In this document: positions 5,295 through 52,223 of the stretch, one piece after another
Numbering within the stretch: position 1 is the stretch's first letter
Layout of the letters: each line of letters opens with the position of its first letter
Assembly: GCA_012517855.1 (NCBI GenBank)
Contig: JAAYUD010000114.1
Location: 13,217 to 77,216, forward strand
Direction: 5' to 3'
DNA length: 64,000 nucleotides
Source of the DNA: Bacteroidales bacterium
GTDB lineage: Bacteria > Bacteroidota > Bacteroidia > Bacteroidales > Bacteroidaceae
Made by a program: the position numbers and the translations under genes
The notes under the pieces: model-generated
Seen by the model: the letters and a program-made list of their open reading frames with translations, nothing else
Told to the model about the DNA's origin: nothing
Database searches by the model: none

Positions 5295-5331
5295 TCTAAC
5301 ACTATTTATTGCTAAAAGCAATGACATAAAG

Positions 5332-5370
5332 GTCCGGTTCTACTAAACATGTTGAACCGGATCTTTTTTT
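5332..5370 (+). terminator. Rho-independent terminator after the ROK kinase gene
   Basis: Stem TCCGGTTC / GAACCGGA (5333-5340 / 5354-5361) followed by a T7 run. Confidence 0.7.
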
Positions 5371-5655
5371 ATGAATAGTCTAAGGCAACGCCCTACCGAA
5401 AAAGATTCAAGATTGCGATCGACAACTATCAAAATCTACAAAAGAGTAAGATTTCTTATATCACGCGTTATCCCTGTTATACAGCCATTTACATAGTGAA
5501 TATTAACAAAGATACTGATACTTTCTTATCCAAACATCAGCGGCAGGACCTTGTAGGGCACTATTTTCGCTATTGTTTCAGCGCTCGAATGTAAATCGAA
5601 TCAGAGCGAGGCATCAATGTTTTTGATGTAAATAATTGATATACAGCAAGAAAAT

Positions 5656-5744
5656 CATAAGGACGAAAATAAATGTTTGTATGTATAAACTTTTATTTTC
5701 GTCCTTATGAATTTTTATGTTCGTCCTTATTATTTTTCGAGGAC
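5656..5744. repeat. Composite palindrome C (inverted unit + direct units at 22-nt spacing)
   Basis: CATAAGGACGAAAATAAA (5656-5673) is the perfect reverse complement of 5692-5709. Core TTCGTCCTTAT recurs at 5698 and 5720, with a degenerate third copy after it. Confidence 0.85.
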
Positions 5745-5948
5745 ACAAGGTCGATTAAGTAAGTGAATAGGCACCACTTCCGGATGGTTAAAATAGTATC
5801 AGTATCATCCCCAATATTCACCTCCCAAAACCTTCAGAAAAGCAGCATCAATATCACGACTTTAGACCAACGCAATCTTGCGTCAATGAAAATGCGTGTC
5901 TCAGGCTCATCAGTAAAAATGAGGAGACTAAGTGACATGAAGGACTAA

Positions 5949-6162
5949 ATGAATGGGGCACACTCGTATATACACAAACGGCCCCTCAGCCACCTGTAGG
6001 CTATCGTTTAGAATCGTTCTAAGCAGAGGTTCGCTGAAAATAAGGACTCTACAGTATACTCCAGAGCCGATTTTCGGGCCTTTTTTCGCTGGCGTTGTAT
6101 ACGGTGTGTCGTTAACATACTGTGTGGCAGTTCCGTATGGTGTCATACGGAGGTGGCAAAGG
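5949..6162 (+). repeat. Conserved ~214-nt element, copy 1 (candidate sRNA or small-ORF locus)
   Basis: Aligns end to end with the reverse complement of 38657-38870; flanks are unrelated. Confidence 0.8.
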
Positions 6163-6391
6163 TTGAAATGCAGATGATTTCACGGTCTTGAAATGCAGCA
6201 ATGAACCCTTCCACCCAAAACCACATAAGGACTTAAATTCGGTGAGGTCCATATGTTTTCAAAAAAACGTATTGACCTCACCGAAAAAAGGAACATACGA
6301 CGATTTCCCCTCATCCTTATTAGATAAGACCTTGTGGTGTACTGAATTTGGTTGACAGTTAAAGTCCTATCGTTTTAAGATATGGCGTTTT

Positions 6392-6434
6392 ATAAAAAAA
6401 GCCCCAAAGAGCTAAGATAAAAGCTCCTTAGGGC
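6392..6434 (-). terminator. Rho-independent terminator after the DUF349 gene
   Basis: On the minus strand, a 13-bp stem GCCCUAAGGAGCU / AGCUCUUUGGGGC. Both mismatches become G-U pairs only on this strand. A U7 run follows. Confidence 0.7.
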
Positions 6435-6465
6435 AAATAAGTTTCAACCTTATTAAGGTAAAAGT

Positions 6466-38448: not shown

Positions 38449-38540
38449 GATCAATCTCTTTCTAAGGAAAAAGCTAAATTACCTTATCCACTCAATAGTG
38501 ACAATAAGTACAATAACTATAATGGTAGTCCATTGCACAA

Positions 38541-38576
38541 AGTAGACAGACACAAAAGTCTGCCTACTTTTATTTT
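38541..38576 (+). terminator. Rho-independent terminator
   Basis: Stem AGTAGACAGAC / GTCTGCCTACT followed by TTTATTTT. Confidence 0.7.
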
Positions 38577-38656
38577 ACACCTCTGTTACTTAACTAAGTT
38601 TGGCTCACTGGCAAAATCAGGGGAGGGTATGCATAAAATTCCATCTTTATAATATC

Positions 38657-38870
38657 CTTTGCCACCGCCGTATGACACCATACCGTACTGCCTCACAGCA
38701 GGTTAATGATGCGCCGTATACAACGCCAGCGAAAAGAGAGCTCAAAATCGCATTGAGAGCATGTTGTGGAACCGTTATTTTCAGCGGACCTTTGTTTAGA
38801 ATGATTCTAAACGACAGCCTACAGATAGCCGAAGGACCTATTTGCAAATAAACGAGTATGATCCCATCCA
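38657..38870 (-). repeat. Conserved ~214-nt element, copy 2 (inverted relative to copy 1)
   Basis: Its reverse complement aligns with 5949-6162. Shared blocks include TTTTCGCTGGCGTTGTATACGG and GGTGTCATACGG-GGTGGCAAAGG. Confidence 0.8.
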
Positions 38871-39138
38871 TCTTTGATAAGTATCTCATTCTCGAAGAAA
38901 GACGGCAGGCAAACAAATGCAATAACCCCTCGGAAATTGCTTTTACATCCACCTTTGTCGGCTTCGATATTTTGTTCAAATTCCCCGCAGACTTCCTCAA
39001 ACTTCATCATTGTCACGTTCAACACTTGCACATATGATATGGTTTCTGTCCTTTTTTCAAAAAGGACGTATCTTACCGGCAAAAATTGATTGTTCCCATA
39101 GATTGGTTGTTTAAAGTTTAGTTTGTAATTAAGGCCCG

Positions 39139-39229
39139 GACGTCTCACACGTGTGCGACATCTGTATCACACGTGTGAGACAATTGTCGCACAGCTGTGA
39201 GACGTCTGTCGCATTCGTGTGAGACGTCT
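39139..39229. repeat. Composite palindrome B (inverted unit + three direct units at 22-nt period)
   Basis: GTCTCACACGTGTGCGACA (39142-39160). Then TGTATCACACGTGTGAGAC, TGTCGCACAGCTGTGAGAC and TGTCGCATTCGTGTGAGAC start at 39163, 39185 and 39207. Confidence 0.9.
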
Positions 39230-39531
39230 ATTTTAGACCTACGAAGCTATAGTACCACAAGTAAGTTATTAGTAACATACTCATTACAGGCCACTTAACC
39301 ACAGTATTTTTACAGATGATTCGTTTTGTAAGTAAGTGAACTTGCAAAAACGCTATATTTAAAGGATTATAAAATATATTGAGCAAGTATCTTTTTTACA
39401 TTTTGTCGCAAAACCGTGCCATCATCTAATAATTTTAAGCCAAAGAGCTAGCTTTTATTTTCAGATTTTCTTTATTTAGAATTCTTATTATAAAAACATC
39501 TTATATATTATTTTATTTCACAATAAATTAT

Positions 39532-39539
39532 TAGCTTTG
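39532..39539 (+). promoter_or_regulatory. Candidate -7 promoter box
   Basis: TAGCTTTG matches TAnnTTTG, 47 nt upstream of ATG 39587. Confidence 0.45.
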
Positions 39540-39586
39540 TTGAACTGAAAAAGACAAACCTATTAAATATAATAAATAATTAATTT

Positions 39587-51581: not shown

Positions 51582-51875
51582 ACTACATTTTAAACGATAC
51601 CCTTATTTCGAATACCAAAGGACAAAGACTTCTTCACCGAAAAAACTGTTCCATTAGATATTTGAGTTCGGGATAAGAACTCAGATATATTGTTGCGAAT
51701 GCGGCGGTCTATATCCGTACGTCTCCGCCACAGTGTTGCAACGAAAGTCACAATGCTCTGCCAAAAAGGCTTTTAGACGTTCCATAATTCCTTTTTAAAA
51801 GGGCGAAGTCTGCGTAACATACTGATGAAAGTTGGTGCATATCAGAACGATTTTATCTTTTGTCCTAATAAAACT

Positions 51876-51985
51876 GTCGTTCCACATATGTGAGTTGATC
51901 GAATCACATATGAGTCGATCGAATCACATATATGAGTCGATCGTTCCACATATGTGATTCGATCAACTCACATATGTGGAACGAC
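51876..51985. repeat. Composite palindrome D (37-bp perfect arms; four direct units then inverted units)
   Basis: Arms 51876-51912 / 51949-51985 checked base by base. TCG-anchored units at 51877, 51899, 51919 and 51941 (spacing 22, 20, 22). Confidence 0.9.
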
Positions 51986-52223
51986 AAAACCTTAATGAGC
52001 CAACAGAAAGGCCTTAAATACGATAACCATGATTCAATAAGATGTGAACAAAAAGCCTTCTCTTAGGGAAGAACCGGACACTTCCATGTACGAGCGATAA
52101 GCAAGGGAGTCTGCATACGGTGCACACACCACAGATACCGAGTAATGACTTAATCAAAAGCCCCCAGTTAACTTTTATTACCAATTTATTTCATTTTGTC
52201 ATGCAATAACGGATATTAATTTG

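What the first reader, a model, noticed from the sequence alone, without database searches (positions are those of the whole stretch)
5949..6162. Conserved ~214-nt element (copy 1 of 2) inside a 1.1-kb gene-free region: candidate paralogous structured sRNA
By hand alignment, 5949-6162 (+) matches the reverse complement of 38657-38870 along its whole length. I counted 38 differences in a 171-nt stretch. The surrounding sequence is unrelated. Highly conserved blocks are CTGTAGGCT.TCGTTTAGAATC.TTCTAA, TTTTCGCTGGCGTTGTATACGG and GGTGTCATACGG.GGTGGCAAAGG. The small hairpins TTTAGAA-nnn-TTCTAA and GTATG-GTGT-CATAC are kept in both copies. A central stretch of about 45 nt diverges, but in each copy it still forms a short hairpin followed by a T-run (CCGATTTTCGG..TTTTTT versus GCTCTCAA..TTTTGAGC..TCTTTT). 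Each copy sits in one of the two longest intergenic regions of the window (5295-6465 and 38449-39586), roughly 200-300 nt from a composite palindrome. Copy 1 is also followed by a 12-bp-stem hairpin (6238-6249 / 6274-6285). I found no terminal inverted repeats and no transposase, reverse transcriptase or integrase nearby.
Basis: seen in the sequence. Interest (0 to 1): 0.65.

Follow-up and report, generated by a model that had tools for sequence, protein, structure and literature searches.

The report
High-copy conserved intergenic repeat element
The two look-alike 214-base blocks are not a private pair of small-RNA genes: they are two of at least 36 copies per genome of a non-coding repeat found only in one narrow Bacteroides lineage, and each copy is still kept intact by selection for a function that is not yet known.

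Summary
Window 5949-6162 (+) matches the reverse complement of 38656-38871 at 78% identity (E 5e-44), and the flanks are unrelated.

The interpretation needs revising:
- **Copy number.** The block belongs to a dispersed family I call "B". There are at least 36 copies in one related Bacteroides MAG, at least 16 in a Bacteroidaceae MAG, and 158 distinct copies once metagenome contigs are added. It is absent from phage, plasmid and viral collections and from Rfam.
- **Boundaries.** The 3' end is sharp (...GGTGGCAAAG). The 5' end is diffuse.
- **Context.** B sits in "repeat nests" with other repeat modules: a TIR-bounded MITE (5496-5821), 22-nt-periodic palindrome arrays, a hairpin module with over 100 copies, and an IS3 end remnant.
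- **No mobility gene.** No transposase travels with B.
- **Not coding.**
- **RNA structure.** Covariation support is weak. No canonical Bacteroides promoter sits at a fixed distance, and there is no general strand bias.
- **Selection.** In 14 strictly orthologous pairs, family-conserved columns change 11 times less often than variable ones (p 6e-35). Individual copies are therefore under purifying selection.

Best reading: an anciently amplified, now immobile interspersed element that the host has taken over. It most likely acts as an RNA module, with a protein-bound DNA platform as a close rival. This is a new variant of the ERIC/BOX/BIME kind of repeat.

The parts
5909..6180 (+). B element, copy 1 (profile-HMM match 5909-6180). 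The family-wide sharp 3' end falls after ...GGTGGCAAAG(G) at about 6161-6162.
38638..38906 (-). B element, copy 2 (core 38656-38871), in inverted orientation relative to copy 1.
6083..6104 (+). Invariant block TTTTCGCTGGCGTTGTATACGG. It stays at least 90% conserved even in copies that were not retrieved through it. The copy 2 equivalent is 38714-38735 (-).
6137..6161 (+). Invariant 3'-terminal block ATGGTGTCATACGGAGGTGGCAAAG, which ends the element.
6007..6025 (+). Hairpin GTTTAGA-ATCG-TTCTAAGC. The inner 5 bp are invariant. The outer pair and three flanking pairs show some double changes between lineages.
5496..5821 (.). Module A, a separate MITE-like repeat. It is bounded by 37-nt terminal inverted repeats (5496-5532 / 5785-5821, 78% complementary) and contains the long palindrome 5651-5714. 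In other loci it occurs both 5' and 3' of B.
6163..6306 (+). Module C, with its hairpin at 6238-6285. The roughly 90-nt hairpin part (6214-6306) has over 100 copies in the fetched loci and also occurs without B.
6333..6363 (+). A 31-nt remnant identical to the terminal sequence of an IS3-family IS (TGTGGTGTACTGAATTTGGTTGACAGTTAAA).
38907..39252 (-). Module E, the upstream partner of copy 2 and shared by the E-B subfamily. It contains a 22-nt-periodic palindrome array at 39139-39228.
5328..5372 (+). Hairpin plus T-run, the likely terminator of the ROK-kinase gene, lying upstream of the repeat nest.
   Evidence: I7; sequence
6400..6434 (-). Strong terminator-like hairpin of the DUF349 gene, on the far side of the repeat nest.

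Best explanation
**Shown**
- The block is one copy of a lineage-restricted interspersed non-coding element, 'B'. It is about 210-270 nt long, has a sharp 3' end at ...GGTGGCAAAG and a ragged 5' end.
- It is present in dozens of copies per genome: at least 36 in one 3.7-Mb contig set.
- It lies in intergenic regions, preferentially between convergent genes, and is usually embedded in nests of other small repeats.
- Copies sit at the same positions in species only 85-92% identical. Paralogues average 72% identity, so the amplification is ancient and the copies are now immobile.
- It does not code for protein.
- Each copy is held by purifying selection on about 100 specific positions.

**Inferred**
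- B spread once as a non-autonomous mobile element and was then taken over by the host.
- The most likely mode of action, at about 40%, is as an RNA module read from the strand given for copy 1. In this model the U-rich tract plus CGCU pairs with the 3'-terminal GGUGGCAAAG and closes a conserved 3' domain of about 80 nt. The long invariant single-sequence blocks would serve as contact surfaces for a protein or another RNA.
- Transcription would come from an unidentified, non-canonical promoter or from read-through.
For: **Copy number and distribution**
- The 18-mer scan of 185,579 species genomes hit B only in two Bacteroidaceae MAGs (33 and 16 loci). The other hits were chance matches.
- An independent 3'-block scan of metagenomes added 107 loci, giving 158 distinct copies.
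- There was nothing in phages, plasmids or viral contigs, and only 3 ORF hits among 5.8 billion proteins.

**Ancient and fixed in position**
- Orthologous copies exist in L046/L079/L171 for copy 1 and in L027/L147 for copy 2. A third site is shared by CAXXSS and JAYRGW (L053/L048).

**Boundaries**
- In 2760 pairwise extensions, the right end piles up at 0 to +9. The left end is spread from -30 to +60.

**Not coding**
- There is no 3-periodicity (p 0.43).
- The synonymous fraction is 0.31-0.33 in the open frames and 0.33-0.35 in closed frames.
- The invariant blocks are invariant at all three codon positions.

**Selection**
- In 14 strict orthologous pairs the differences per column are 0.020 in conserved columns, 0.128 in intermediate ones and 0.226 in variable ones. 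The ratio is 0.087, p 6e-35, with the two retrieval blocks excluded. A looser grouping gives the same result.

**RNA lean**
- 95.5% of cells pair in the consensus fold.
- Nearly all one-sided changes are G.U<->A-U/G-C and keep pairing only on the + strand.
- Both JAYRGW-lineage changes in the 3' tail (G->A) keep pairing with U.
- 0 of 500 shuffles reach the observed paired percentage or covariation score.
- Runs of 22-25 invariant nt are more typical of RNA contact surfaces than of protein operator sites (inference).
Against: **Against an RNA reading**
- Covariation is weak. Five pairs show double changes against 4.3 in shuffles, and the helices rich in G.U are uninformative.
- The top mutual-information pairs are not Watson-Crick.
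- MFE z is about -1 on both strands.
- No TAnnTTTG/TTTG promoter lies at a fixed distance on either strand.
- There is no terminator at the 3' end, and the internal hairpin plus T-run is not scored as one.
- The copy 1 nest lies between the neighbouring genes' own terminator-like hairpins, and a hairpin also follows the gene before copy 2. Read-through transcription is therefore doubtful.
- In tandem intergenic regions the sense/antisense counts are 14 and 11, so orientation relative to transcription does not matter in general.

**Against the mobile-origin step**
- No clean empty site, target-site duplication or partner enzyme was found, so a mobile origin is inferred only from dispersal.
Confidence: 0.4

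Rival explanations
1. B acts as double-stranded DNA: a platform of about 200 bp bound by one or more sequence-specific proteins, such as a nucleoid-associated protein, a regulator, or a recombinase- or transposase-derived protein. Its function would be in chromosome organisation or insulation at gene ends, as proposed for BIMEs.
For: - Orientation is independent in tandem intergenic regions (14 against 11), and convergent regions are preferred over divergent ones (20 against 7, p 0.02).
- The core is almost free of indels over about 190 nt in 137 copies, which suggests fixed spacing.
- It contains several short palindromes: TTTAGA-N5-TCTAA(A/G), GTATAC, GTTAAC and CCGTATG-N4-CATACGG.
- There is no promoter or terminator, and RNA covariation is weak.
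- Purifying selection acts on each copy.
Against: - Runs of 22-25 consecutive invariant bp are longer than usual protein contact sites.
- No 10-11-bp periodicity or repeated half-site array was evident.
- No candidate binding protein has been identified.
- One-sided changes in the predicted helices are almost all wobble-compatible on one strand only.
Confidence: 0.3
2. B is a purely selfish, non-autonomous mobile element (MITE-, SINE- or PATE-like) with no host function. On this view the conserved blocks only reflect what its lost or unseen mobilising enzyme needed.
For: - B is dispersed, high in copy number and restricted to one lineage.
- It has a sharp 3' end and a ragged 5' end.
- It clusters with other mobile repeats, including an IS3 element, a TIR-MITE and palindromic modules.
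- It avoids divergent, promoter-bearing regions.
- One related genome carries a different module (X) at the copy 1 site.
Against: - Orthologous copies avoid changes in the family-conserved columns 11-fold. Selection on a source element cannot produce that pattern in fixed copies.
- Both window copies, and a third site just past the window's end, keep intact blocks in a species 88-92% identical. A neutral 18-mer would survive with a probability of about 2% (my estimate, from 0.2 substitutions per site).
- B has no terminal inverted repeats, and no partner gene lies next to any of 158 copies.
Confidence: 0.12
3. B is a mobile promoter-plus-leader cassette. The conserved GCTGAAAATAA region would act as an alternative (ECF-type) sigma promoter, and the 3' half would be a conserved 5' leader reading out into whatever lies downstream.
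For: - In 23 loci B lies inside or next to ECF-sigma / anti-sigma / SusC operons, and it is almost always sense to them.
- Two unrelated anti-sigma-to-susC spacers that lack B share CCTGAAAAAT, which resembles B's invariant GCTGAAAATAA.
- The sharp 3' end without a terminator, and the absence of a housekeeping promoter, fit this reading.
Against: - The motif match is only 7-8 nt in A-rich sequence.
- Most copies face the 3' end of a convergent gene.
- The susC genes downstream of B appear to keep spacer DNA of their own.
- No -10-like CGTC lies at the right spacing in B.
Confidence: 0.08
4. B encodes a small protein. The candidates are the 74-aa + frame, which has a hydrophobic stretch followed by RRWQR, and the 72-aa - frame starting MTPY.
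For: - Both frames are open in most copies, up to 69-70 codons.
- Three database ORFs match.
Against: - There is no codon periodicity.
- There is no excess of synonymous change over the closed frames.
- The invariant blocks show no third-position relaxation.
- Frame shifts among copies occur in the 5' part.
- There are no Pfam hits.
Confidence: 0.03

Closest known systems
ERIC (enterobacterial repetitive intergenic consensus) elements
   Same: - Non-coding and intergenic.
- Tens to hundreds of copies per genome.
- Nucleotide sequence conserved across species.
- No associated transposase.
- Function unresolved, and often discussed as RNA-level.
   Different: - ERIC is a 127-bp imperfect palindrome found in Enterobacteriaceae and Vibrio.
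- B is 210-270 nt, not palindromic, unrelated in sequence, and confined to a narrow Bacteroidaceae lineage.
- This comparison rests on general knowledge, not on a test run here.
Mosaic repeats: BOX (pneumococcus) and BIME (E. coli)
   Same: - A modular build, in which several repeat modules (A, B, C, E, X here) occur in varying order and combination within intergenic 'nests'.
- A preference for gene 3' ends.
   Different: - BOX and BIME modules are 20-60 nt and largely palindromic.
- B is a long, asymmetric module.
- The per-copy purifying selection measured for B here has not, to my knowledge, been shown for BOX or BIME.
IS200/IS605-derived PATEs and ORF-less omega-RNA / HEARO copies
   Same: - No terminal inverted repeats.
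- One sharply defined end, with a hairpin about 12 nt inside it in some copies.
- A conserved non-coding core of about 200 nt.
- Many ORF-less copies.
   Different: - No TnpA, TnpB or IscB lies next to any of 158 copies.
- No Rfam hit, including HEARO and the IS605-associated motifs.
- The 3' hairpin is not maintained in most copies.
- Copies are ancient and immobile.
FopS / GibS multicopy sRNAs of Bacteroides (PMC11697453)
   Same: - A multicopy non-coding family in Bacteroidaceae.
- Some link to SusC-type loci.
   Different: - FopS RNAs are 65-70 nt, number 12-15 per genome, have canonical sigma-ABfr promoters, and occur widely across Bacteroides.
- B is 3-4 times longer, has at least 36 copies, and has no such promoter at a fixed distance.
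- B is absent from cultured Bacteroides genomes.

Membership tests
Any Rfam 15 RNA family | A covariance-model match at or near the family's gathering score. | tested here: not met
   The gathering scan of the window found only tRNA-Met. Scans at E<=10 of both intergenic regions gave no hit on B on either strand.
MITE | Terminal inverted repeats at the element's ends. | tested here: not met
   The repeat finder finds no terminal inverted repeat for B. The only pair touching B's end (5984-5995 / 6151-6162, 12 nt, 83%) has its 5' arm well inside the element. Module A next door does have 37-nt terminal inverted repeats.
MITE | A target-site duplication, plus an empty site in a relative. | tested here: inconclusive
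   No clean empty site exists among 193 loci. The one polymorphic orthologous site (L186) has another module (X) in place of B.
MITE / IS-derived fragment | A parent IS that shares the element's ends. | tested here: not met
   Neighbour clustering around 158 copies recovers only secondary IS3 insertions, spurious ORFs and PUL genes. There are no plasmid, phage or viral hits. Whole genomes could not be scanned.
IS200/IS605 PATE / TnpB omega-RNA | Some copies adjacent to tnpA or tnpB, and subterminal hairpins at both ends. | tested here: not met
   No such gene lies within 3 kb of any copy. The 3' hairpin's left arm varies without compensation, and no conserved 5' hairpin exists.
REP / REPIN / BIME | A short (20-40 nt) palindromic unit, often tagged GTAG or CGTC. 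| tested here: not met
   B is asymmetric and over 200 nt long. The neighbouring palindromes (A, E, C) carry GGACG/GACGTC motifs reminiscent of CGTC-tagged REPs (PMC3733652). That is a lead only.
Group II intron 3' fragment | Domain V/VI structure. | tested here: not met
   There is no Intron_gpII hit at E<=10, and no reverse transcriptase is nearby.
FopS/GibS sRNA family | A transcript of about 65-70 nt with a sigma-ABfr promoter (TTTG / TAnnTTTG) directly upstream. | tested here: not met
   There is no positional peak of TAnnTTTG upstream of B on either strand in 80 representatives. The size differs 3-4-fold. Direct sequence comparison was not possible because the sequences are not in the paper's text.
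Protein-coding small ORF | Codon periodicity and an excess of synonymous change in one frame. | tested here: not met
Structured RNA (generic) | Helices supported by compensatory changes above the phylogenetic background. | tested here: inconclusive
   Five of 35 pairs show double changes, against 4.3 in shuffles. 95.5% of cells pair, against 94.4%. The helix 104-106/134-136 switches from GCU/GGU to GGG/CCC between lineages, but 15-25% of its cells are unpaired. The mutual-information scan gave no Watson-Crick signal.

The most novel reading that the evidence does not exclude
B is a previously undescribed class of multicopy functional non-coding element, with more than 36 copies per genome individually held by selection. 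It could be the scaffold of an RNA that works with an unidentified protein (guide-like or sponge-like). It could instead be a mobile promoter/leader cassette that wires many loci, including ECF-sigma/SusC operons, to one signal.
Probability: 0.15. Interest if true: 0.8.

Novelty: new variant of a known kind. Interest (0 to 1): 0.5.

Why it matters
Bacterial interspersed repeats are usually written off as selfish or structural filler. Here each of dozens of copies of a repeat over 200 nt long, with no match in Rfam or in the phage, plasmid and viral collections searched, shows an 11-fold deficit of substitutions at about 100 defined positions between species. That pattern implies a function acting at each copy. 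If the function is RNA-based, this would be the largest selected multicopy non-coding RNA family reported in Bacteroidaceae. If it is DNA-based, it would point to an unknown chromosome-organising or regulatory protein.

There are practical consequences too:
- The family breaks short-read assemblies at these sites.
- It produces spurious ORF calls on both strands.

Tried and rejected
**Known families and collections**
- Rfam at gathering score and at E<=10: nothing on B.
- BLASTN against phages, plasmids and E. coli genomes: nothing.
- Two viral-contig scans: only chance 17-mers, or nothing.
- The Prevotellaceae hit L022 and 23 hits in other phyla: chance 18-mers.

**Coding**
- Rejected.

**Partner gene**
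- Two rounds of neighbour clustering found none.

**Orientation bias**
- An apparent bias towards 'upstream gene on the same strand' turned out to be an artefact. Convergent regions always score that way. After removing orthologous duplicates, the tandem sense/antisense counts are 14 and 11.

**Empty sites**
- Two searches found none.

**Structure and transcription signals**
- The mutual-information covariation scan gave only subfamily markers.
- The exhaustive conserved-helix scan gave many G.U-rich, uninformative candidates.
- The 9-bp pairing AGAGGTCCG/CGGACCTCT seen in one subfamily is not kept in others (by eye).
- No positional signal for a TAnnTTTG promoter.

**Other leads**
- FopS and DonS literature: a different size and architecture.
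- The third palindrome nest (51659-52155) is unrelated to B.

Full report
**Observation.** Window 5949-6162 (+) and the reverse complement of 38656-38871 align over 216 columns at 78.2% identity (E 4.8e-44). The 22-mer TTTTCGCTGGCGTTGTATACGG occurs exactly twice in the window, against none expected. A family profile HMM finds only these two copies in the 64 kb, with envelopes 5904-6182 and 38636-38911.

**Not a two-copy pair.** A scan of one genome for each of 185,579 species with the 18-mer CGCTGGCGTTGTATACGG returned 73 loci.
- 33 lie in one uncultured Bacteroides MAG (CAXXSS01), which holds 36 copies by BLAST.
- 16 lie in a Bacteroidaceae MAG (JAYRGW01).
- The rest, including a Prevotellaceae hit, are chance 18-mers in unrelated phyla.

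An independent metagenome scan with the 3' block ATGGTGTCATACNGANGTGNCAAAG added 107 loci from a few JGI samples. That makes 158 distinct copies. The 18-mer block is still at least 90% conserved in copies that were not retrieved through it. Nothing similar exists in phage or plasmid records, viral contigs or E. coli genomes. Rfam has no match at gathering score or at E<=10. The + strand ORF finds only three JGI proteins among 5.8 billion. The family is therefore high in copy number but confined to a narrow lineage.

**Genomic setting.** The window is ordinary Bacteroidaceae core chromosome. It carries an ABC transporter, a ROK kinase, a DUF349 protein, KsgA, M16, M20, S8 and S9 peptidases, a SusC/SusD pair and an alpha-2-macroglobulin, with no mobility genes. 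It is orthologous at 88-92% identity to CAXXSS01 and to JGI contigs. Both B copies sit at the same positions there: L046, L079 and L171 for copy 1, and L027 and L147 for copy 2. A third site just beyond the window's end is shared by CAXXSS01 and JAYRGW01 (L053 and L048). Paralogues average 72% identity. The amplification therefore long predates these species splits.

**Anatomy.** Across 2760 pairwise extensions the right boundary is sharp, 0 to +9 nt after ...GGTGGCAAAGG. The left boundary is spread between -30 and +60. The core is almost free of indels over about 190 nt.

B is embedded in mosaics of other repeats:
- **Module A (5496-5821)** has 37-nt terminal inverted repeats and contains the long palindrome. 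It is a separate MITE-like element, and it occurs on either side of B in other loci.
- **Module C (6163-6306, hairpin 6238-6285)**: its roughly 90-nt hairpin part (6214-6306) has over 100 copies and also ends a different module, X.
- **Module E (38907-39252)** carries a 22-nt-periodic palindrome array.
- **6333-6363** is an exact 31-nt copy of the end of an IS3-family IS. In related genomes that IS has inserted on either side of A's palindrome.

One related genome with an identical ROK protein carries A'-X-C' instead of A-B-C at the copy 1 site. This is a presence/absence polymorphism but not a clean empty site. No empty site or target duplication was found.

**What it is not.**
- *Not coding.* Column variability has no 3-periodicity (p 0.43). 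The synonymous fraction is the same in the open and closed frames (0.31-0.35). The invariant blocks are invariant at all codon positions.
- *Not attached to a transposase.* Clustering of all ORFs within 3 kb of the copies yields only secondary IS3 insertions, spurious ORFs across B, and SusC, anti-sigma and ECF-sigma genes.
- *No terminal inverted repeats*.

**RNA structure.** Support for a conserved fold is weak.
- The RNAalifold consensus is -15.5 kcal/mol, with a covariation term of -2.0.
- On that structure 95.5% of cells pair, against 94.4% in shuffles. Only 5 of 35 pairs show double changes, against 4.3 in shuffles.
- Most variation is one-sided G.U<->A-U/G-C. That is compatible with an RNA on the + strand, but it is weak evidence in a G/U-rich sequence.
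- The best mutual-information pairs are subfamily markers, not Watson-Crick pairs.
- MFE z-scores are about -1 on both strands.

**Transcription signals.**
- No TAnnTTTG promoter sits at a fixed distance on either strand.
- The internal hairpin plus T-run is not scored as a terminator.
- The copy 1 nest lies between the neighbouring genes' own terminator-like hairpins (5328-5372 and 6400-6434). A hairpin (38539-38570) also follows the gene before copy 2.

**Selection.** This is the key positive result. In 14 groups of strictly orthologous copies, with both far flanks aligned, I compared the most divergent pair in each group. Differences per column were:

| Column class (family-wide conservation) | Differences per column |
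|---|---|
| At least 93% conserved | 0.020 |
| Intermediate | 0.128 |
| Variable | 0.226 |

The conserved-to-variable ratio is 0.087 (p 6e-35). The two retrieval blocks were excluded from this test. A looser grouping gives the same result. Selection on a source element cannot produce this pattern in fixed copies, so individual copies are constrained.

**Position and orientation.** By orthologous group, the intergenic regions holding B break down as follows:

| Intergenic type | Groups |
|---|---|
| Convergent | 20 |
| Tandem, B sense | 14 |
| Tandem, B antisense | 11 |
| Divergent | 7 |

B therefore prefers gene 3' ends (convergent against divergent, p 0.02) but shows no general strand preference. 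My earlier impression of co-orientation with the upstream gene was an artefact of the convergent class. The one exception is the 23 loci inside or next to ECF-sigma / anti-sigma / SusC operons, where B is almost always sense. Two anti-sigma-to-susC spacers that lack B share CCTGAAAAAT, which resembles B's invariant GCTGAAAATAA. This is a weak lead for a promoter/leader role and is not borne out by the spacers downstream of B.

**Conclusion.** B is an anciently amplified, now immobile, lineage-specific interspersed element whose copies are individually maintained.
- I favour an RNA-level function, at about 40%. The grounds are the wobble-compatible substitutions and the 22-25-nt invariant runs.
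- A DNA-level protein-binding platform is a close rival, at about 30%. The grounds are orientation independence, fixed spacing, short palindromes, and the lack of a promoter or terminator.
- A purely selfish relic is unlikely given the selection test.
- The closest known kinds are ERIC, BOX and BIME mosaic repeats, and ORF-less omega-RNA or HEARO-type copies. B fails the testable membership criteria of each.
- FopS sRNAs (PMC11697453) show that multicopy regulators exist in Bacteroides, but they differ in size, promoter and distribution.

Noticed in passing
window 5496-5821: A separate MITE-like repeat (module A). It has 37-nt terminal inverted repeats (GTGAATATTAACAAAGATACTGATAC...) and an internal 31-nt-arm palindrome at 5651-5714. 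It is found in both MAG lineages, on either side of B.
   Followed up: partly
window 6333-6363; L012 3760-5243, L025, L006, L042: A 31-nt exact copy of the end of an IS3-family IS (OrfA 129 aa, OrfB 317 aa). In related genomes the complete IS is inserted immediately left or right of module A's palindrome, which suggests it targets the palindrome.
   Followed up: partly
window 39139-39228 and 51875-51986: Two unrelated palindrome arrays share one architecture: 22-nt units stacked four times, with cores CACACGTGTG and CACATATGTG respectively. The second lies in a third repeat nest (family 'R3', 51659-52155), which has copies in 15 fetched loci.
   Followed up: partly
window 6214-6306 (hairpin 6238-6285): Hairpin module C is the most abundant repeat seen, with over 100 copies in the fetched loci. 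It carries GGACGTC motifs and ends both the B-C unit and an unrelated module X of about 450 nt.
   Followed up: partly
L186 5381-5830 (Ga0183100_1000262), orthologous to window about 5823-6213: A genome encoding an identical ROK kinase has module X in place of the linker plus B at the copy 1 site, and a module A that lacks the palindrome. The contents of these repeat nests therefore turn over between close relatives.
   Followed up: partly
L188-L191 (Logan short-read contigs), equivalent to window about 5578-5672: Short-read assemblies of relatives end inside or just before the repeat nest. These repeats fragment assemblies.
   Followed up: no
L044/L109/L163 and L049, anti-sigma-to-susC spacers: Two unrelated spacers share CCTGAAAAAT. 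This may be an ECF-sigma promoter element of these PULs.
   Followed up: no
window 5953-6177 (+), 5928-6146 (-), 38647-39000 (-), 38600-38851 (+): Both strands of B stay open for about 70 codons in most copies although the element is non-coding. These frames have been called as hypothetical proteins in three metagenome records.
   Followed up: yes
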